From Nitrosopumilaceae archaeon (GTDB lineage: Archaea > Thermoproteota > Nitrososphaeria > Nitrososphaerales > Nitrosopumilaceae): a stretch of 64,000 bases of DNA. Shown here piece by piece: positions 1,317 to 25,811 of this stretch. The translations under genes were made by a program, and so were the position numbers. Position 1 is the first letter of the stretch. Each line of letters opens with the position of its first letter. The DNA lies in assembly GCA_965214835.1 (NCBI GenBank), contig CBDCCK010000002.1, forward strand, positions 960,001 to 1,024,000, in the 5' to 3' direction. The notes below the pieces were generated by a model. The model ran no database searches and was not told the origin of the DNA. It saw nothing but the letters and a program-made list of their open reading frames with translations.

Positions 1317-1788
1317 AAAATACCTAAAATGGTGTGCAAAGCAAAGCAAGGGCATCAGGATCGTCAAGGAGTCAAAAAACCTACAGAAGGCATATCTGAA
1401 AAAATCAGAAAATGCCCTAAAATCGATGGAGGTCAATGCAAGAGAAGGTATTGATGAATGGGCAATTTCAGCTAGTTACTATGCAAAATATTTTGCCATC
1501 TATGCACTATTGTCAAGAATAGGCATAAAATGCGAGATACATGACTGTACAATAGTTTTATTTGGTTATCTGTTTTCAGAGGAAATCGCACCTTCAGTCA
1601 TGGGTGACCTTAGGCAATCAAAAGAGGACAGAGTGGAGGCGCAATATTACAGTACAGTCGAGCAGATAGATTCAAAAGAATTGATTGCCAAAACCAAGGA
1701 CTTTGTTCTCAAGATGGAGGAAATAATTGACGGACTAAGCACGCAAAAGATTACATCCCTACAAAGAAAACTTGTGTCTGCATTGTAG
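1303..1788 (+). CDS. HEPN-domain protein (MNT-HEPN toxin-antitoxin partner)
   Basis: SYYAKYFAIYALL...H...RVEAQY pattern of archaeal HEPN proteins, coupled to an MNT gene. Confidence 0.8.
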   Translation: MQPNEKYLKWCAKQSKGIRIVKESKNLQKAYLKKSENALKSMEVNAREGIDEWAISASYYAKYFAIYALLSRIGIKCEIHDCTIVLFGYLFSEEIAPSVMGDLRQSKEDRVEAQYYSTVEQIDSKELIAKTKDFVLKMEEIIDGLSTQKITSLQRKLVSAL

Positions 1789-1855
1789 TTTTTCTATTCA
1801 GTTTTGTAATAGCAGCTAAGCGAAATGTGAACCGGAAGGACCATAGTATCTATCC

Positions 1856-2953
1856 TATACTGATGATCATTGAAAATTTCGCCTGATTACACGCTGCGCT
1901 CAAGATACTTGTAGATGTCAACCTTGATGGAACACGTCCTAAAGTATTCCGAGACGGCCCTTTTGAGGTGATCTACCGTCTCGTAAAATGCCGATGTAAC
2001 CAGCCTGTACTTGGCATCCTTCCAGACTGCCTCTATGACGCTCAGCTCCGGCCTAGCTACTGGCAGGTACAGCAAGACAACGTCGGGATTTTTCTTTAGG
2101 TATCTGCGGACCTTTCCGGTCCTGTGCTGTGCTGCGTTGTCCATCACAATCAGAACCTTTCCCCACTTTTTGTGCGCCTGCTTGAGATAATGCACAAAGT
2201 TTGCACTGTTGAACTTGTCGTACGTGCGCATCAGCCGGGTTCCGTCGTCTGCAATCGTTCCGTATACCACGACGTGCTCCCTTCTGCCGGATCGTTGCAC
2301 CTCGATCCTGTCCCCCACTGGCGACCAGAACTTTCTGCCGTCCCTTCCCGTACTGACGAATATCGATTCGTCCTGTACGGTTATCCTAAATCCGCGCCTT
2401 TTTGCAAGCTTAATCGCGGTTCTTGCCGCCCCCTGCCACCGTCTTACCGCCTTTGCGTCGGCAGCATCTGCCAGCTTGGTGGTTGACGTCTTTAGCGAGA
2501 ATCCCATCGTGCGCAGGATTCTTCTGATGCTTCCCACGCTGTATGTGACATGCAGCCTGCGGCGCACCCAGTTGCACAGCTTCTTCGGGGTGAGCTTTTC
2601 CATCCTGCGCAACTTTGTGGCGATCTTTTTTATCCTGCTGACTGGAACCTTTGGCTTTCTGCCCCTGTCAGGGGAGTCACGGAGGCCGTCGATGCCGTCA
2701 AGCTCGAATCTATTGATCCACATCTGTACTGTACGCTGTGTCACGTCGGCAATCTCCGCGGTATGTGCGGTGGTGTTGCCAAGCAGCACGGAGCGCACCG
2801 CCATGATTCTGGTATAAACTCTGTTATCCTTTTCGACACACATGGCATCCGTGAGGGTTTTCTTCTTGTTCATGTCAGGATGGCCATGGATGGAGATCTA
2901 TAAACCTTCACAAGGCGTGCAATCAGGCGAAATTTTCAATGATCATCAGTATA
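1856..2953 (-). mobile_element. IS630-family element, copy 1 (apparently intact)
   Basis: Perfect TIR TATACTGATGATCATTGAAAATTTCGCCTGATT at both ends including the flanking TA; CTAG target. Confidence 0.92.
1887..2873 (-). CDS. IS630 transposase
   Basis: HTH N-terminus; DDE motifs QDES, MDNAAQH and PELSVIEAVW. Confidence 0.92.
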   Translation of the reverse strand: MNKKKTLTDAMCVEKDNRVYTRIMAVRSVLLGNTTAHTAEIADVTQRTVQMWINRFELDGIDGLRDSPDRGRKPKVPVSRIKKIATKLRRMEKLTPKKLCNWVRRRLHVTYSVGSIRRILRTMGFSLKTSTTKLADAADAKAVRRWQGAARTAIKLAKRRGFRITVQDESIFVSTGRDGRKFWSPVGDRIEVQRSGRREHVVVYGTIADDGTRLMRTYDKFNSANFVHYLKQAHKKWGKVLIVMDNAAQHRTGKVRRYLKKNPDVVLLYLPVARPELSVIEAVWKDAKYRLVTSAFYETVDHLKRAVSEYFRTCSIKVDIYKYLERSV

Positions 2954-3027
2954 GTCAACAGGGGGACGTAACCTCCCATATCAAACGGTGCTGATTCCCT
3001 GCACGGGCCACTGCGAGTGTGCGTTTT

Positions 3028-4123
3028 TCAGTCAGACGCATTCACTAGGCATTCCATCGCTTTATACTTTCTCTGCGTGAGCTCCTTGTTCTGCGTGCGG
3101 TATTCCGTTTCATTGGTCAGCATGTGCCAGATCACCTTTGCAAGCGTTCTGGCCACGGCCACCTTGGCCTTTTGCCTTCCCCTGCGCTTGGCTATTCTAC
3201 TGTACCTTTCACCCATCCTGCTATCGTGCTGCACCGCTACGGTAGCTGCGTTGACAATGGCGTATCGCAGCCATGCAGAGCCGGTCTTGGTTATTGATCC
3301 TCCCCGTACGGTCTCGCCGCTGTTGCGGTGTGACGATATCAGGCCCGCGTATGATGCAAGCTTTTCTGCGGTGGGAAATCTTTGTATGTCTACTATTTCA
3401 GATATTATGGCAAGTGCGATCACGTGGCTTATTCCGGGAACCGTCATCAGGAGCTTGGTTCTGGGATCGTCTCTGCAGATGGTTGCAATCTTGCGCTCAA
3501 ATCCTGCTGCCTGCTGCTGCGTCACTTCAATCCTGTCCAGTCCCGTGCCTATCATCATTTTATCCATCTCCGAGATGTCAGTCCCCGTCGTCCCTGCAGA
3601 GCTCATGCATCCATTGGATTCCCTGTACGGTAAACTTGCCCTTGGTGGGCGGCCTTGCCACATACTTTGCAAGTATTGCAGTTATCTTGTTCTTTTCGGC
3701 TGTTCCCAGGCGTACTGCGTCGATCCTGGCCCTTGAGAGGCCGCGCAGGTCCCTATAGTACCTGTCAGGCACGAACGACTCGTACACCATGTCCATCCTG
3801 AGCAGATCTGCCAGTACCTCCGAGTCTACTTTATCATCCTTTAGCCTTGCCTGCGCTATGGCCCGGGTCTTGGCAGGATGCGCCAGCAGTGTGTCTATTT
3901 GCTTATCCTCAAGCATGTCATGCAGCAGGATCCAGTAGTTCCCCGTTGCCTCACAGACTGCACGGATCTCGTGTCCTGCATATTTCTCGTTGATCCGTCC
4001 GACAAATTTTCTTATTCCGTCGGCCGTGTTGGAAAACTCCGTCTGTTCCAGAATCTTTGCAGTATCGTCCTTGATGGTTGCTACGCACGTCTTTTTATGA
4101 ACGTCTATTCCGATGTTGATCAT
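3028..4123 (-). pseudogene. IS110 recombinase, frameshifted near 3590
   Basis: The DEDD RuvC domain (IGIDVHK, CEATGNYW, KDDKVDSEVLA) is in one frame; TVPGIS...LASYAGL...NSGE...ITKTGS is in another. Confidence 0.9.
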
Positions 4124-4129
4124 TGTATC

Positions 4130-4290
4130 ACCTCCTTGTTGATCAAAGTGTGTGTGCCCAACTGAACGGAAAACTCCCATTCGCCCTCGATGTGGCATTT
4201 TGTTGTCCGCCTACTCTGAGCCAGTCTCATACACGCCCTCATACGTGGCAAGGTTACTTCGGCTCTTGGGCCCAACATGGAATATATGGC
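4130..4290 (-). ncRNA. Putative IS110 bridge RNA (target loop about 4218-4265, donor loop about 4166-4210)
   Basis: Two stem/internal-loop/hairpin modules share a UGCCAC..GAGGGCG hairpin. Loop segments match the target and donor sequences. RNA ends are approximate. Confidence 0.75.
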
Positions 4291-4334
4291 ATCCGCTACA
4301 GATAAGATTTGATATAACGTCTCATACAATACTT

Positions 4335-4831
4335 TAGTAGAAAAGGTCTTGAATGGCTTAATGATTCACTAGAGGATAACAAAGTTAAAACGGCAAAAAT
4401 TCTTGCAGCTAACAACAGAAAGCGGCCCAAATTAATTAACCGCCTAAGGAAGTAACAGCTCGGGCTCTGGAAGTTCAGGCATGAATTTTATCGCCAAAGG
4501 GATCTTCGCAGATGTAATTTGTGTCTAAAATCATAAATCACTTCCAGAGCCCGAGCTGGTACCTAAGGAATCATTTCAAGAAATTTAGAAGTGAAAACAA
4601 AGAAAAAGGAATTTTATGTGAATTAAGAGTGATAATTGATGGCAAACTAGCTTCTAACATTCACGATAGGTGGATAATTACAAAAACACCACCTTCAATG
4701 TACCTTCTACCGATGTTATCGCACGCGGACAATATTCAGAAATAAAAAGAGATGCCAATCGGCCTGATTTTGAATCATGGTGGAACCGATCAGTAGACAT
4801 TTTGGATAAATATAATGAAATCAGTAGATGA
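4335..4831 (+). pseudogene. AT-rich gene remnant with an HDRW (PLD-like nuclease) motif
   Basis: After removing the MITE and restoring one A it reads ...IHDRWIITKNTTFNVPS...GQYSEI...FESWW. The 5' end is missing. Confidence 0.45.
4452..4562. mobile_element. MITE family C (IS66-type ends)
   Basis: 22-bp TIR GTAACAGCTCGGGCTCTGGAAG with one mismatch; 8-bp TSD CTAAGGAA. Confidence 0.9.
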
Positions 4832-20498: not shown

Positions 20499-20554
20499 AT
20501 GCCACGAAGCGAATCCTTCGCGTGTACGAGGTCACTTGGTTTTGACGTGTTTTG

Positions 20555-20683
20555 GGGGTTGTCGCCTAATTCGCTAGAATCCCCGAAAACCGTTGAGATG
20601 CCATATGATCAGGCGTGCAAAAGGGCGGAAATTCGGAAAAACGTACGGATTGAGTCGGGTAGGTGGAATTAGGCGACAGCCCC
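20555..20683. mobile_element. MITE family B
   Basis: TIR GGGGTTGTCGCCTAATTC; 9-bp TSD CGTGTTTTG. Confidence 0.9.
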
Positions 20684-21225
20684 CGTGTTTTGACAACCTG
20701 CGTAACATATTGCGATCATGCTGATCAAATACGATGCCTGTATAGCATCAGCATCATGAAAGGCCGTCGACCCACATACCGCGAACTAGAGGCCACAATC
20801 GTATCATTCACAGACAGAATAAGCACGCTAGAAAATAACCAAAAGGTAATGTGCAGGATGATGAAGGAGAAGGACAGGCGGCTCCGGTACTACGAGAACG
20901 AGAACTCGCCACCGTCTGCAGAATCACTAGAGTACAAGAGGCAAAAGGCGCAGCGGAAAAGGGAGAGGGCTAGTAACCGTGGCAACGGCAGCAACGGCAG
21001 CAGTAGTGGCAACAATAATGGCACCGGCAAAAAGCCGGGAGGCCAGAGGGGCCACAAGGGGACATCCAGAAGACACGACCCACAGAAGACGGTGCTTCAC
21101 ACGTTCCAGGACAACGACGGGACGTGCTCGCCGGTGTGCATGTGCGGGGGGGCCATGGACATAACTGCCCTGATACGGGACATCATCGACTTTGAACCGG
21201 TCAGGATGACAGAGACGCGGCACAT

Positions 21226-22641
21226 CAGTACTTCCTAGATGTACTTTTGCAGACCCGACACGGCACCTCCGCTACTTTCCGCGATCGTTTACAAACGAGT
21301 CGGCCGCATCGACAATGCACGCGACAAACAGCATCATGGTAAACCCCTTCCCTCCTGCAAATCCGTCCCACTTGGATTCCACGTCTATGAACACGGCAGT
21401 CCTCCACAGGTTGTACAGTATGACAGACATATAGAACAGCAGCAGCCTGACGACCGGGGAATTGCTGCACGTCTTGCCCATTATCCCCTTGATCACCCTG
21501 AACCCGGTCTCGATTCCCCACCGACTGCGGTACTCCTCCGGTATCTGCTCAATGACTGCCTCTGCACTTTTAGCAGACATGTTGGTGGCAAAGACCAGAT
21601 ACCTGTCGGCTATGGTCTCTTCTGCCTTGTCCTTCTTTGCTGCTGCCGTGCCGTCCTTTTCTACCTCGTCCTTTTCCACAATGACTAGCCTGAATGTGGC
21701 GCTCTTGCCGTCCTTGTTGGTCATTGTATATTTTGATACCGCACCGCGTTCTCCGCGGTCATGCTCCTCTATTGCCGCCACTATCCTCCTGTTCTTGACG
21801 GCAGGCATGATGTAGCTGCCCGTGCTTGTTTCTGCAGCCCTCATGCAGTCCACGTTAAAGAACCCGCGGTCATACAGGAACGTCTTGATCCTCATCCCTG
21901 ATCTGGACGCCTTGCGGATCATTTTAGGCACGAAATCGGCCAGTTTTGCCTCTTTTGGAAGCTGCAGCGAGGAAAGCACGAGGTCAGACCCGTCATCTGA
22001 TCCTATTCCGTGCATGGTAATGTGCGAGAGAAACGTCGACGTGCCGTTCTTGGGCTTTGACTTTCTGGCGATATCCTCCAGGCCCTTGCCATAGTATTCC
22101 ACGTCGGTAACGTCCACTGCCACGACGTCCGTGTTGTGCAGCATGCCTGACCTGCGGGCGCACCTTACCGTATGCTGCAGCATGGAGCTGCACCACTTTT
22201 GCGCATCATCCAGGCTGACGCCCCGGATCGCCTTTAGGATCCAGTCCGGACTAGGCGTACGGCAACTATACGCGCCGCCCTTGGAGGCAGCCCCGTCGTC
22301 ATGCTGCTGCCTGCTGCATTTTGAGGCCCGCCTGCGAAGGTGCGTCACGGCAGATTCTGCAAACATCCTCCTCTCAGACATGAAATATAGAACGCGCAGT
22401 GCGTCGATGTGGTCATACACTGCGTTGCGACTCTTTGAGACGGCCAGCCCGAGCTTGGGAAACCGCCGTCGCAATGTTTTAAACTGTCTCGATGTTATGT
22501 CAAACTGGTGTGCAAACACGTCGTTTTGTGTTGGTATCATGATGATGGTTGGCACACCGCCTGATCTATAGTATGATGGTCAAAAAATCTCGGCAAATTG
22601 CGTAATTATCGTGCCTGCAAAAGTACATCGAGGAACTACTG
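21226..22641 (-). mobile_element. ISH3/IS4-superfamily element
   Basis: Imperfect 27-bp TIR CAGTACTTCCTAGATGTACTTTTGCAG; TSD ACAT. Confidence 0.88.
21272..22555 (-). CDS. ISH3-like DDE transposase
   Basis: VAVDVT, YDRGF and YRSRWGIETGFR (YREK-like) motifs. Confidence 0.9.
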   Translation of the reverse strand: MPTIIMIPTQNDVFAHQFDITSRQFKTLRRRFPKLGLAVSKSRNAVYDHIDALRVLYFMSERRMFAESAVTHLRRRASKCSRQQHDDGAASKGGAYSCRTPSPDWILKAIRGVSLDDAQKWCSSMLQHTVRCARRSGMLHNTDVVAVDVTDVEYYGKGLEDIARKSKPKNGTSTFLSHITMHGIGSDDGSDLVLSSLQLPKEAKLADFVPKMIRKASRSGMRIKTFLYDRGFFNVDCMRAAETSTGSYIMPAVKNRRIVAAIEEHDRGERGAVSKYTMTNKDGKSATFRLVIVEKDEVEKDGTAAAKKDKAEETIADRYLVFATNMSAKSAEAVIEQIPEEYRSRWGIETGFRVIKGIMGKTCSNSPVVRLLLFYMSVILYNLWRTAVFIDVESKWDGFAGGKGFTMMLFVACIVDAADSFVNDRGK

Positions 22642-23481
22642 ACATAACCGAGCGTGCCACATGCAGACTGTGCGGCATTATGATATCAGCAGACGACGGA
22701 CTCCCAAGGAGGGGCAGGTACGGCAAGCACATGATCTCCCTTGTGTCTGCCTTGCGCGCAAGGCACATGCCGCTGCAGTCCGTGGCAGACACGCTCAAGG
22801 ATTTTACCGGCAGGAGCATCGCCAAATCGACCGTAATCAACATGATCGGAGGGGTATGCGACTCTATGCAAAAGCCGTCAGGCGCGATCCTGGGCGGCAT
22901 CAAGAGATCATCCAACGTCAGAATAGACGAGACTGCGGCCAACATGAACGGCAGCCGCATATGGACATGGACTGCCGAGACGGACAACGGCGTGTTTGTC
23001 GAGTACAATACGAGCAGGGGCGCACTGTTCCTGGACAGGCACATGGAGGGGTATGGCGGAATAGTGACATCTGACAAGTATTCGGTGTATGACAGGTTCA
23101 ACGGGGAGGACAGGCACCAGCTGTGCTGGTCGCACGAGCTGCGCGTATCAAAATACGCGGCGCAAAAGCAGGGCGCCCCGCTGTTTGCGGGAATACTGTA
23201 CGAGCAGCTTCGGCAGCTGTACCGCAGCGCCGTCAGGGCAGCGAGGAGGAAGGACAGGGGCAAGGATCTGCGCAGAAGGTTCGAGTCCTGGCTGCGCAAC
23301 ATACTGTTCGGGTACCGGGAAAGCACGGACGACCCCGTCCTGGGCCCGGTACTGCGCAGGCTGACAAGCTCGCTGCCGCACCTGTTTACGTTCCTGGAGC
23401 ACGACGGCGTGCATCCCACAAACAACGCCGCAGAGCGTGCCCTCCGTTACGCCGTCGTCTTCCGCAAGATAAGCGGGCAGA

Positions 23482-23573
23482 GTATGTGGTCACGTCCCCC
23501 TGTTGACTAGGCGTGAAAATCATGTCATAGATATCAATTCGTGCCTGATTGGCAGGGGTAGGTGACCTCATAC
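23482..23573. mobile_element. MITE family A (92 bp, IS66-derived)
   Basis: TIR GTATGTGGTCAC/GTGACCTCATAC; 8-bp TSD CGGGCAGA. Confidence 0.92.
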
Positions 23574-23754
23574 CGGGCAGATCAAGGGAGGGGAACTCTG
23601 GATGAGGAGGTGGTCGTGGTTTATGACGTGCATACTGACATGGAGGGCAAGGGGCAGATCCGTAGCAGACGAGGTCATGAAACTGGTTTAGGAACGTGAC
23701 CTCGTACTATCATTGCTGTAAAATGTATATAAACAGAATCCAATACTCAATAAC

Positions 23755-24682: not shown

Positions 24683-25811
24683 TTATTGCCAGTCCGAGCA
24701 GGTAGTATCGAGGCCTGGCAGGAGATCCGTCGCTTTCAAAATCCAGAAACACGTCGGTCTTTCCCCTTCGTACATTGGCGCCCCATCCTGGCTTTTTTTA
24801 GCCTTTTTTGTAACAAGGGCATTAACATGCGTAATCATCGATCTGGAAAGTTTCATGCCAAAACCTACATCTGCAAGCCCTCGTTCTCCGGCGTCCCTGA
24901 CATCATGGATCGTGTTAAATCCTGCCTCCTGCAGCATGCCTGCCCGCTGCTTCCCTACCCCGCTGATAAGGCTCAGGCTTCCGTGCTTGATTGCCAATTT
25001 GTTACCGTAACGGAGCCACGGGTGAGATCCTTTGCCGTACGCAGGATCAGGCATCTTCCCGTCCATGATGTCCATTATCTGCCCCAACGAAAACTCAAGA
25101 CGCCCCACCCACTGGTCATACGAGAAGGGGTGCTCTTTTTTATCTCCGTCTATGACGTAAAACACATCTGGAGTGACACCCTGTATTGCCCCGAGCAACC
25201 GGTTGTAAAACGCAGCCTGGAGAACGTGGCCTCGTTTTAGCCGCACGCTCTTGATCTCTTTGATCACGTAGTAGTGATTCCCAAATTCCGATTTTCCGCG
25301 ACGGCGCTCGAGCACGTCGGGCATGCCAAACATGCCATTTGGGAGCGAGATGACAGGAGGGTTTGAGATCATTTTTGTGCCTGCAGCCATTGCGTCAAGG
25401 CCCTGTCTGAACCCGTCACTGAATGTCAGGTATGGCATCTTTTGGGGTATGTGGTCACGTCCCCCTGTTGACTAGGCGTGAAAATCATGTCATAGATATC
25501 AATTCGTGCCTGATTGGCAGGGGTAGGTGACCTCATACCTTTTGGGGAATGCCATATGATTCCTCAACTGTTTTTGCCTCGTAGACATTGCCTGCCTCTG
25601 CCATGGCATCTAGCATTGGATCCGGAGGATCTCTCTCTGCAGGATCCGCATACATGTCGGCCCACAGTGAGAACGGACTGTAATAATGCCTCAGAACGTC
25701 ACTTGCCCTAACGGCCCTGTCCCAATTGCCCGTAGTGTGCCTTGCATGCATTTCGGCTAGATCCGCCGGTCGAGGCACATTCCTGACCATATCAAAAATC
25801 TCATTTGCCAT
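24683..25811 (-). pseudogene. TM0106-like RecB-family nuclease, interrupted by MITE-A and 3'-truncated
   Basis: GMPDVL...KEIKS...HVLQAAFY plus an HhH region. Removing the MITE joins ..YGIPQK to MPYLTF.. in frame. Confidence 0.8.
25447..25538. mobile_element. MITE family A
   Basis: Identical to 23482-23573; TSD CTTTTGGG. Confidence 0.93.

What the first reader, a model, noticed from the sequence alone, without database searches (positions are those of the whole stretch)
2952..4327. The IS110 guide is programmed against the TIR of the IS66/MITE-A family
Joining the flanks across the IS110 gives TAGTCAACAGGGGGACGTAAC-CT-CATAC. This is the reverse complement of a MITE-A end (compare GTATGTGGTCACGTCCCCCTGTTGACTA at 23482). 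The IS110 therefore sits inside an IS66-type TIR and destroys it. Near-cognate sites GTGACCTC(A/G)TAC occur at 20524, 23562, 23696, 25527, 51225, 52493 and 52575. The occupied site has the A variant that matches the guide exactly. Precedent: IS4321/IS5075 target Tn21 TIRs and IS621 targets REP sequences. Inference: this is a transposon that uses another family's multicopy ends as safe-harbour landing pads, and may suppress that family.
Basis: partly seen in the sequence, partly recalled or inferred. Interest (0 to 1): 0.82.

Follow-up and report, generated by a model that had tools for sequence, protein, structure and literature searches.

The report
RNA-guided IS aimed at IS66 ends
An RNA-guided jumping gene in an archaeal genome carries a guide RNA that matches the terminal repeat of a different, very abundant transposon family and sits inside such repeats; this is a clear new example of a habit already known from bacteria.

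Summary
Window 2975-4320 (minus strand) is a 1346-bp IS110-family element. It has the same dinucleotide (CT on +, AG in IS orientation) at both junctions. The joined flanks give a 28-nt sequence that matches a MITE-A end at 26 of 28 positions. MITE-A shares its ends and 8-bp duplications with 1.6-kb elements that encode IS66-family transposases.

The upstream non-coding region folds into two stem/internal-loop modules. The first loop carries GUAACCU and GUAUGAG, which pair with the two strands of GTATG-AG-GTTAC.

The 90%-identical intact copy carries GUAAACU/GUAAGAG. It sits in GTAAG-AG-TTTAC, the end of a second IS66-type MITE. In this genome, 10 of 11 left junctions read GTA[A/T]G-AG, and 5 of 5 right junctions continue into IS66-type repeats. 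Two other genomes show the same flanks.

More distant relatives have different guides that match their own flanks. One of them targets an IS630-like MITE end.

The window copy has a 2-nt frameshift that it shares with a near-identical copy elsewhere, so it was probably mobilised in trans.

No RNA data exist. Suppression of IS66 is unsupported: no intact IS66 copy is hit. Precedents are IS4321/IS5075, IS1111/QMITE2 and ISEc21, so this is a new member of a known kind.

The parts
2975..4320 (-). IS110-family insertion sequence, 1346 bp. The left end (LE) is at 4320 and the right end (RE) at 2975.
   Evidence: Boundaries come from copies in other contexts. Domains are PF01548 plus PF02371.
4321..4322 (.). 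Core dinucleotide, LE-side copy (CT on +, AG in IS orientation).
   Evidence: The same dinucleotide stands at both junctions. AG precedes the LE in 11 of 11 family-1 copies.
2973..2974 (.). Core dinucleotide, RE-side copy.
4323..4327 (-). Terminal 5 nt (GTATG on the minus strand) of the interrupted IS66-type repeat; this is the left target.
   Evidence: GTA[A/T]G stands at 10 of 11 LE junctions.
2952..2972 (-). Inner part of the interrupted repeat (GTTACGTCCCCCTGTTGACTA on the minus strand); this is the right target plus the rest of a MITE-A-like end.
4156..4271 (-). Structured core of the predicted bridge/seek RNA (IS positions 50-165). It has an outer stem, a target-binding module and a donor-binding module.
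   Evidence: Consensus fold and pair counts: 91.5% of cells paired, 8 pairs with compensatory change, and 26-50% paired in the slid controls.
4251..4257 (-). Guide GUAACCU on the 5' strand of the first internal loop. It is complementary to the top strand AG+GTTAC (right target).
   Evidence: It co-varies with the right flank (GUAAACU with AG-TTTAC; CUAUUCU with AG-AATAG).
4226..4232 (-). Guide GUAUGAG on the 3' strand of the first internal loop. It is identical to the top strand GTATG+AG, so it pairs with the bottom strand (left target).
   Evidence: Co-variation is shown.
4174..4181 (-). Donor guide AAUGGGAG on the 3' strand of the second loop. It matches the RE end ATGGG plus the core AG.
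   Evidence: It is invariant in all 9 aligned relatives, and all ends found read ATGGG|AG (5 RE ends of the relatives; 5 of the G000 copies).
4198..4205 (-). 5' strand of the second loop (CAACAAAA). It is a partial donor guide; AAC pairs with LE positions 3-5 (GTT).
   Evidence: Change is co-ordinated with the LE: AAC/GTT, AGC/GCT, GGGGU/ACCCT and AGUG/CACT. This evidence is weaker than for the other three guides.
4308..4315 (-). Subterminal inverted repeat, LE arm (ATATCAAA).
   Evidence: Its partner is at 2978-2985. The repeat co-varies in the G004 relative (ATATGAAAAAT with ATTTTTCATAT).
2978..2985 (-). Subterminal inverted repeat, RE arm (TTTGATAT).
3578..4123 (-). Transposase N-terminal part (DEDD/RuvC-like domain). 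It ends at a stop codon created by a 2-nt deletion near 3580.
3028..3672 (-). Transposase C-terminal part (Transposase_20), in another reading frame.

Best explanation
What it is. This is an RNA-guided DEDD-transposase insertion sequence of the IS110 family, in an archaeal genome. It has IS1111-like features: 8-bp subterminal inverted repeats, and the top-strand match lying 5' of the bottom-strand match.

The guide RNA. The 197-nt region upstream of the transposase gene encodes a bridge/seek RNA with two internal loops.
- The second loop holds the element's own joined ends: AAUGGGAG matches the right end plus the AG core, and a partial match covers left-end positions 3-5.

The target. That 12-mer is the first 12 nt of the terminal inverted repeat of an IS66-family IS and its MITE derivatives. 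The element therefore lands 7 nt inside such repeats, always with its left end towards the repeat terminus. Apart from the shared AG core it makes no target duplication. The insertion splits the repeat.

Paralogues. Copies in the same genome carry re-programmed guides (GUAAACU/GUAAGAG) that fit the repeat of a second IS66-type family (GTAAG-AG-TTTAC).

The window copy. It is non-autonomous because of a 2-nt frameshift, and it probably moved using the intact paralogue's transposase.

Shown versus inferred. Shown by sequence: the element boundaries, the guide/target complementarity, the co-variation, and the IS66 identity of the hosts. Inferred: expression of the RNA, the recombination chemistry (by homology to IS621 and the IS1111/IS110 seekRNA systems), and the trans-mobilisation.
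For: - Domains: PF01548 at 1e-28 and PF02371 at 1.2e-24; NF033542 'IS110 family RNA-guided transposase'. The intact paralogue matches the IS621 transposase in PDB at E=4e-14.
- Left junctions: 11 of 11 family-1 left junctions in the genome end in AG, and 10 of 11 read GTA[A/T]G before it (the other reads GCATG). Upstream of that the flanks are unrelated.
- Right junctions: 5 of 5 continue into IS66-type repeats. Three are MITE-B, one is the MITE-A-like orphan end, and one is an internally deleted IS66-A.
- Guide/target fit (non-core positions, left/right): window 5/5 and 5/5; intact copy at genome position 313050 5/5 and 5/5; G003 L029 5/5 and 5/5. For one representative of each of 8 lineage labels, the guide matches its own left flank at a mean of 4.4 of 5 positions, against 1.8 of 5 for 56 cross pairings.
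- Same flanks in other genomes: a same-genus genome, G002, shows GTAAGAG|, GTATGAG| and |AGTTTACCCC. A MAG labelled Nitrosopumilus sp. shows GTACGAG|.
- RNA fold: 26 pairs, 91.5% of cells paired, 8 pairs with change on both sides, and 26-50% paired in the slid controls.
- Hosts are IS66 family: PF03050 at 4.4e-30 and 4.1e-24, with 8-bp duplications ACGGAATC and CATCCATC.
- Target 12-mers are multicopy: GTAAGAGTTTAC 45 copies and GTATGAGGTCAC 45 copies.
- Published architecture: two guide segments pair with opposite strands and overlap at a core dinucleotide (PMC11208160, sections 6-7). In IS1111-type seekRNAs the top-strand match lies 5' of the bottom-strand match (PMC11187229, sections 9 and 12).
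Against: - There is no expression evidence for the RNA.
- The single-sequence fold is no better than shuffles (z = 0.33), and no Rfam family matched.
- Several degraded copies have guides that differ from their own flank at 1-2 of the 5 non-core positions (7 of 10 family-1 rows in G000 and L050).
- The window guide's exact 12-mer has 0 free copies in the genome.
- Its sister copy sits in a one-mismatch site, and its right junction lacks one base.
- The window transposase is frameshifted.
- The 5' strand of the donor loop pairs with only 3-5 nt of the left end and does not cover the core.
- The MITE-B copy that hosts the intact IS shows no 8-bp duplication around the composite (flanks seen).
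- The three MITE-B hosts could descend from fewer than three insertion events.
Confidence: 0.85

Rival explanations
1. One or a few ancestral insertions into a MITE were spread passively, by mobilisation of the composite by the IS66 transposase, by segmental duplication, or by recombination between MITEs. On this view the association with IS66 ends does not reflect repeated RNA-guided targeting.
For: - Segmental duplication does occur here. Two family-2 copies (at 1917668 and 1963219) have identical flanks.
- The three MITE-B hosts belong to one family.
- Many copies are old fragments.
Against: - The hosts are of three different kinds, and their right flanks differ from the eighth base on.
- The guides differ between copies in step with the repeat variant.
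- The insertion leaves only 7 nt of the repeat at the outer end, so the composite lacks a normal IS66 end.
- The 99-100% identical window and 1650576 copies lie in different host elements.
- The same flanks are seen in two other genomes.
Confidence: 0.07
2. The conserved GTA[A/T]GAG and the G/TTTAC... flanks are really the ends of the IS110 element itself (mis-set boundaries), not a target.
For: IS110-family ends are hard to set and are often mis-recorded (PMC11187229, section 13). The left flank is nearly constant.
Against: - The uninterrupted 12-mers exist 45 + 45 + 20 times without any IS110. They lie at the ends of MITEs and of IS66 elements that have their own 8-bp duplications.
- The right flanks run on into complete MITE or IS66 bodies.
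- The donor guide AAUGGGAG fits the boundary as set.
Confidence: 0.02
3. Beyond safe-harbour use, the element acts as an antagonist of IS66: by splitting terminal repeats it lowers IS66/MITE transposition.
For: The insertion separates the terminal 7 nt of the repeat from the rest by 1.35 kb. The relation is two-way: a MITE-A sits inside one IS110 copy and a MITE-B sits inside a family-2 copy.
Against: - 0 of 5 hosts is an intact IS66.
- Hundreds of free ends remain: 111 + 110 + 45 + 45 + 20 for the five commonest 12-mers.
- Only 3 full-length IS110 copies exist, and only 1 has an intact gene.
- The commonest ends (GTACGAG..., GTATGTG...) mismatch the guides.
Confidence: 0.1

Closest known systems
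[quoted passage not shown]
   Same: Both are IS110-family elements with subterminal inverted repeats. Both insert at one fixed position and in one orientation inside the terminal repeat of an unrelated transposon family.
   Different: - The target here is an IS66-family repeat and its MITEs, in an archaeon.
- The guide region lies upstream of the transposase gene, not downstream.
- Two guide variants for two repeat variants coexist in one genome.
- I know the IS4321/IS5075 work only from its title in reference lists and from recall. The paper was not read.
IS1111 of Coxiella burnetii, inserting into QMITE2 copies
   Same: The preferred landing site of an IS1111-type element is a multicopy MITE; 20 of 21 IS1111 copies are associated with QMITE2 (PMC5896051, passages).
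   Different: The Coxiella target is a GTAG palindrome inside the MITE, not its terminal repeat. The host is a bacterium.
ISEc21 (IS110 type), whose target lies in IS3-family transposase genes, and ISMch6, its naturally redirected relative
   Same: An RNA-guided IS is aimed at another IS family. Natural retargeting happens through a few base changes in the guide (PMC11187229, section 12).
   Different: [quoted passage not shown]
- In ISEc21 the bottom-strand match lies 5' of the top-strand match. Here the order is the reverse.
IS621 bridge RNA system
   Same: - Both have a two-loop RNA in the upstream non-coding end.
- Each loop pairs with both strands around a 2-nt core.
- The right-donor pairing is discontiguous (PMC11208160, sections 6-7).
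- The transposases are homologous (E=4e-14).
   Different: [quoted passage not shown] Here the 5' side pairs with the top strand.
- The core is AG rather than CT in IS orientation.
- This element has an 8-bp subterminal repeat, against 2-3 bp in IS621.
- The IS621 target is a REP sequence.

Membership tests
IS110 family (ISfinder sense): DEDD transposase, RNA-guided | N-terminal DEDD/RuvC-like domain (PF01548) plus C-terminal Transposase_20 domain (PF02371) | tested here: met
   (1e-28 and 1.2e-24, on the two ORF pieces). (both domains on the intact 365-aa paralogue). (NF033542; the two pieces score 106.9 and 131.2 bits, each below the 140-bit whole-protein cut-off because the gene is split).
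IS110 family (ISfinder sense): DEDD transposase, RNA-guided | No terminal inverted repeats at the tips and no target duplication beyond a shared core dinucleotide | tested here: met
   CT/AG stands at both junctions. The joined flanks rebuild an uninterrupted repeat end.
IS110 family (ISfinder sense): DEDD transposase, RNA-guided | The long non-coding end encodes a structured RNA whose loops match both strands of the target and of the joined ends | tested here: met
   Complementarity and co-variation are shown. This is in silico only.
IS110 family (ISfinder sense): DEDD transposase, RNA-guided | The RNA is expressed and is required for transposition | not testable with these tools
   No RNA run is listed for this DNA. 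This needs small-RNA sequencing and an assay.
IS1111 group | Subterminal inverted repeats of 7-17 bp (criterion as given in PMC11208160, section 12) | tested here: met
   TTTGATAT/ATATCAAA is 8 bp, lying 3 nt and 5 nt from the tips. The repeat co-varies in G004.
IS1111 group | The long non-coding region lies downstream of the transposase gene | tested here: not met
   There are 197 nt upstream and 53 nt downstream. PMC11187229, section 6, notes a few IS1111 members with an upstream region.
IS1111 group | The top-strand match lies 5' of the bottom-strand match in the seekRNA | tested here: met
   GUAACCU (pairs with the top strand) is at IS positions 64-70. GUAUGAG (pairs with the bottom strand) is at 89-95. 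The rule comes from PMC11187229, sections 9 and 12.
IS1111 group | GL-P----S(T)G motif in the C-terminal domain, and placement in the IS1111 clade of a transposase tree | tested here: inconclusive
   The intact paralogue reads GLVPSHRNSG and the window copy reads GLISSHRNSG. No phylogeny with ISfinder references was made.
IS66 family (for the host repeats) | Full-length elements with the same ends encode a DDE_Tnp_IS66 transposase | tested here: met
   PF03050 scores 4.4e-30 (IS66-A, GTATGTGGTCACC... ends) and 4.1e-24 (IS66-B, GTAAGAGTTTACCCC ends). NF033517 scores 179.6 bits against a cut-off of 180.
IS66 family (for the host repeats) | 8-bp target duplication | tested here: met
   The duplications are ACGGAATC, CATCCATC, CGGGCAGA for the MITE-A at window 23482 and GATAACTG. 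That 8 bp is typical of IS66 is recalled, not from a call.
IS66 family (for the host repeats) | Canonical three-ORF organisation (tnpA, tnpB, tnpC) | tested here: not met
   The 1.6-kb elements have one long ORF. Single-ORF IS66 relatives are known, but that is recalled. The 3.2-kb element at window 20524-23707 has extra ORFs with no Pfam hit.
IS that target the ends of other transposons (a behaviour, not a clade) | Fixed position and fixed orientation inside the terminal repeat of an unrelated element, at several independent places | tested here: met
   In 5 of 5 copies with both sides readable, the insertion lies after base 7 of the repeat with the left end outward. The same holds in G002. 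The G003 lineage inserts 7 nt from the end of an IS630-like MITE.

The most novel reading that the evidence does not exclude
This archaeal clade of RNA-guided IS has specialised as a parasite of other transposons. Each lineage keeps re-programming its two short guides to follow whichever terminal repeat or MITE is abundant in its host:
- two IS66 repeat variants in this genome and in two relatives;
- an IS630-like MITE end in G003;
- a MITE in G004;
- the IS630 leader for the second IS110 family in this genome.

The result would be a running contest between transposon families, in which the guide sequences record the history of the target repeats and the insertions disable transposon ends.
Probability: 0.3. 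Interest if true: 0.65.

Novelty: new member of a known kind. Interest (0 to 1): 0.45.

Why it matters
It gives a natural series of closely related guide/target pairs, set out below. Such a series is useful for learning how few changes retarget a bridge/seek RNA and how much mismatch is tolerated in nature.
- Two guide variants occur within one genome.
- At least three more occur in sister genomes.
- One apparent insertion occurred at a single-mismatch site.

It extends transposon-end targeting by IS110-family elements to archaea and to IS66-family and IS630-like elements.

It also shows a defective copy that carries its own guide and appears to have moved in trans. The guide and the enzyme can therefore evolve on separate elements.

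For annotation, it explains why some IS66/MITE ends in this repeat-rich genome look truncated.

Tried and rejected
- Rfam scan of window 2800-4500 at E<=1: 0 matches.
- Single-sequence RNA fold of the 197-nt leader: z = 0.33, so uninformative. The alignment-based fold was used instead. RNAalifold drew the basal stem of the donor module differently from my structure, and that helix is the weakest (72% paired).
- Public runs: no RNA holder is listed. This says nothing about expression.
- Contigs of 4 runs were laid on window 1600-4800. No listed contig bridged an empty site and none spanned the stretch, because the assemblies are fragmented by repeats. Several contigs diverge just beyond 4327-4329, which fits the boundary but is weak evidence.
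- Search for the remainder of the host MITE left of the IS630 insertion: the 161 nt there have no other copy in the genome. The host is therefore an orphan end.
- Programmed frameshifting as an explanation of the split gene was rejected. The break is a 2-nt deletion relative to the intact paralogue and creates an in-frame UGA with no slippery run.
- The family-2 copies at 1917668 and 1963219 looked as if they lay in a MITE-B. In fact a complete MITE-B is inserted into them.
- Are the relatives' targets always repeats? No.
  - G010: 0 exact free sites, and only about twice the reversed-pattern control at up to 2 mismatches.
  - G004: 3 exact sites, and the total is not above its control, although the exact sites lie in a short inverted-repeat element.
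- Literature searches for a prior report of IS110 aimed at IS66 ends (listings only) showed none among the listed titles. The target logos for more than 300 IS in PMC11187229 are in figures and supplements that I could not see, and they may include such a case.
Full report
**What is at the coordinates**

Window 2975-4320 is a 1346-bp insertion sequence on the minus strand. It holds two overlapping ORF pieces:
- 3578-4123, which matches DEDD_Tnp_IS110 (PF01548, 1e-28);
- 3028-3672, which matches Transposase_20 (PF02371, 1.2e-24).

NCBIfam names both pieces 'IS110 family RNA-guided transposase'.

The same dinucleotide stands at both junctions: CT on the + strand at 2973-2974 and 4321-4322, which is AG in IS orientation.

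The 18-mer inside it recurs at 23492 and 25457 and in none of 100 shuffles.

The genome's 16S gene scores 1452.6 bits on the archaeal model and 1089.2 on the bacterial one. The only labelled outside relative of the transposase is in a MAG labelled Nitrosopumilus sp..

**What the interrupted sequence is**

The elements at window 23482-23573 and 25447-25538 are 92-bp MITEs with ends GTATGTGGTCAC.../...GTGACCTCATAC and 8-bp duplications. The genome holds more than 150 BLAST matches to this MITE.

A 1.6-kb element at genome C2:675077-676712 has the same ends, the duplication ACGGAATC, and one ORF with DDE_Tnp_IS66 (PF03050, 4.4e-30; NF033517 at 179.6 bits against a cut-off of 180).

A second family exists:
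- an 86-bp MITE ('MITE-B', 90 BLAST matches);
- a 1.63-kb element at C2:502459-504084, with duplication CATCCATC and PF03050 at 4.1e-24.

Both have ends GTAAGAGTTTACCCC.

In the window itself the host is only an orphan end of 28-30 nt. The 161 nt beyond it have no other copy in the genome. An IS630-family element (about 1858-2951; NF033545 at 2e-54) is inserted at a TA right next to the orphan end.

BLAST of the IS against its genome found 3 full-length copies and many fragments of one family, plus a second family at about 75% identity.

*Left junctions.* All 11 left junctions of family 1 end in AG. Of these, 10 of 11 read GTAAG (4) or GTATG (6) just before it, and one reads GCATG. Further out the flanks are unrelated to each other.

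*Right junctions.* All 5 run into IS66-type repeats:
- AG-TTTACCCCTCAGG..., three times, each a diverged MITE-B copy;
- AG-GTTACGTCCCCC, in the window;
- GGTCACCTACCCCC, the end of an internally deleted IS66-A. This junction lacks one base.

No copy contradicts the reading.

*Free sites.* Uninterrupted 12-mers are abundant:

| 12-mer | free copies |
|---|---|
| GTAAGAGTTTAC | 45 |
| GTATGAGGTCAC | 45 |
| GTATGAGTTTAC | 20 |
| GTACGAGGTCAC | 111 |
| GTATGTGGTCAC | 110 |
| GTATGAGGTTAC (exact match to the window guide) | 0 |

*Other genomes.* A same-genus genome (G002) shows GTAAGAG|, GTATGAG| and |AGTTTACCCC. The labelled MAG shows GTACGAG|.

**The guide**

The 197 nt between the left end and the start codon align across 9 sequences from 4 genomes. 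A structure with an outer stem and two stem/internal-loop/hairpin modules is well supported:
- it is kept in 91.5% of cells;
- 8 of 26 pairs change on both sides;
- partners slid by 1-3 columns give only 26-50% pairing.

The single-sequence fold alone is not better than shuffles, and Rfam has no match.

In the first loop:
- the 5' strand reads GUAACCU (window 4251-4257), complementary to the top strand AG+GTTAC;
- the 3' strand reads GUAUGAG (4226-4232), identical to the top strand GTATG+AG.

A second GUAUGAG lies in the hairpin loop between them. It is similar in relatives that have other targets, so it is a structural motif and not the guide.

In the second loop:
- AAUGGGAG matches the right end ATGGG+AG and is invariant in all 9 aligned sequences;
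- the 5' strand pairs with only 3-5 nt of the left end, and changes with it: AAC/GTT, AGC/GCT, GGGGU/ACCCT.

Durrant et al. describe the same logic for IS621, including a discontiguous right-donor pairing (PMC11208160, sections 6 and 7 read).

**Co-variation**

| Copy or lineage | Guides (5' strand / 3' strand) | Site |
|---|---|---|
| Intact copy at C2:311703-313050 (90% identical) | GUAAACU / GUAAGAG | GTAAG-AG-TTTAC |
| Window copy | GUAACCU / GUAUGAG | GTATG-AG-GTTAC |
| G003 lineage | CUAUUCU / CCGGCAG | CCGGC-AG-AATAG |
| G004 lineage | 3' strand GUAAUAG; AUUAAC pairs with G+TTAAT in a register shifted by one | GTAAT-AG-TTAAT |
| G010 | AUGAGAC pairs with G+TCTCAT | (right flank only) |

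Over one representative of each of 8 lineage labels, the 3'-strand guide matches its own left flank at 4.4 of 5 non-core positions on average. The 56 cross pairings average 1.8 of 5.

Degraded copies often carry 1-2 mismatches in the 5 non-core positions (7 of the 10 family-1 rows in G000 and L050).

**Subgroup**

The top-strand match lies 5' of the bottom-strand match. Siddiquee et al. report this order for IS1111-type seekRNAs and the opposite order for the IS110-type ISEc21 (PMC11187229, abstract and sections 9 and 12 read). IS621 also has the opposite order.

Other features bearing on the subgroup:
- The element has an 8-bp subterminal inverted repeat (TTTGATAT/ATATCAAA), which co-varies in G004.
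- The intact copy has GLVPSHRNSG.
- The long non-coding region is upstream, which is the IS110-type position. The same paper notes a few such exceptions among IS1111 members (section 6).

I therefore file it under the IS110 family in the broad sense, with IS1111-like traits. No tree was made.

**State of the window copy**

Relative to the intact paralogue, the window copy lacks 2 nt near 3580, which splits the gene.

The copy at C2:1650576-1652022 is 100% identical over positions 1-642 and 99.2% over 635-1346. It shares the deletion but lies in a different host element, and it carries a MITE-A insertion of its own.

The simplest reading is that a defective element with its own guide was moved by the intact paralogue's enzyme. 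This is an inference.

**How it most likely works**

By homology with IS621 (PDB match E=4e-14) and with the seekRNA systems, I infer the following steps:
1. The element leaves as a circle joined at AG.
2. The RNA's second loop holds that junction, and its first loop holds both strands of the first 12 nt of an IS66-type repeat.
3. The DEDD enzyme exchanges strands at the AG core.

The product has the left end next to the terminal 5 nt of the repeat, and the repeat is split.

The complementarity, the co-variation, and the fixed position and orientation are shown by sequence. The RNA's existence and the chemistry are inferred.

**The wider claims**

'Safe harbour' is a sensible inference, because landing in MITE ends avoids genes. 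It is not tested.

'Suppression' has no support:
- none of the 5 hosts is an intact IS66;
- hundreds of free ends remain;
- the commonest ends mismatch the guides.

Targeting of other transposons does look recurrent in this genus:
- The G003 lineage's free target sites (4 exact) lie 7 nt from the end of an 86-bp MITE whose repeat shares 19 nt with the IS630 repeat of this window.
- One copy of the second IS110 family in this genome sits in an IS630 leader, 56 nt from its end, with a matching guide UUUAUAG.
- The G004 target lies in a short inverted-repeat element. However, its count is not above the control.
- The G010 target is not repeated.

**Comparison with what is known**

IS110-family elements aimed at other mobile elements are already known:
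- IS4321/IS5075 into Tn21-family repeats (title seen in reference lists only; otherwise recalled);
- IS1111 into QMITE2, 20 of 21 copies (PMC5896051, passages);
- ISEc21 into IS3-family transposase genes, with natural redirection in ISMch6 (PMC11187229, section 12).

Three literature searches listed no report of IS66 ends as a target (listings only). The supplements and target logos of PMC11187229 could not be seen.

**Verdict**

This is a new member of a known kind, of moderate interest. Its value lies mainly in being a natural retargeting series in archaea.

Noticed in passing
window 1858-2951: An apparently intact IS630-family element: a 328-aa ORF at 1887-2873 on the minus strand (NF033545, 2e-54), about 30-bp terminal inverted repeats, and TA on both sides. 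It is inserted directly beside the orphan MITE-A-like end that hosts the IS110.
   Followed up: partly
window 20524-23707 and 23482-23573: A 3.2-kb IS66-type element with ends GTACGAGGTCAC. Its transposase C-terminus is interrupted by a 92-bp MITE-A with duplication CGGGCAGA. Several of its ORFs have no Pfam match and the gene looks fragmented.
   Followed up: partly
G000:C2:1651218-1651310 (locus L003/L004): A MITE-A (duplication GATAACTG) is inserted inside the IS110 copy that is the near-twin of the window copy. IS66-type MITEs and the IS110 therefore insert into each other. A complete MITE-B likewise sits in the right end of the family-2 copies at C2:1917085 and C2:1962636.
   Followed up: partly
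G000:C2:1909554, 1917668, 1963219, 2918740: A second IS110 family, about 75% identical to the first, has its own guides (UUUAUAG or CCUAUAG). One copy lies in an IS630 leader 56 nt from that element's end. Two copies have identical flanks, so they are a segmental duplication.
   Followed up: partly
G000:C2:2365713-2366148 and 1917085-1917668: Internally deleted IS110 derivatives keep the whole guide-RNA leader and both ends (positions 1-310 joined to 1164-1278, and 1-455 joined to 1150-1288). Five of eight left-end fragments stop between IS positions 253 and 340. These may be non-autonomous mini-elements that carry their own guide.
   Followed up: no
window 4234-4250 (hairpin between the two target guides): The loop of this hairpin reads GUAUGAG, the same heptamer as the left-target guide and the IS66 repeat start. 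Similar loops occur in relatives with unrelated targets: GUAUGAG in G010, GCAUGAG in G003 and GUAUGAA in G004. I cannot tell whether this is coincidence or has a meaning.
   Followed up: no
locus L051-L054 (G003) and L029/L033: In the same-genus genome G003, an 86-bp MITE with ends CTATTCTGGCGATCATTGAAAATTTCGCC... (IS630-like) is the target of the local IS110 relative. The insertion again lies 5 nt plus the 2-nt core from the repeat terminus, but with the right end outward.
   Followed up: partly
whole genome G000: The genome is 3.2 Mb, about twice the size of most genomes sampled from the same family (1.1-1.8 Mb). It is packed with MITEs and IS; single 12-mers of transposon ends occur more than 100 times.
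   Followed up: no
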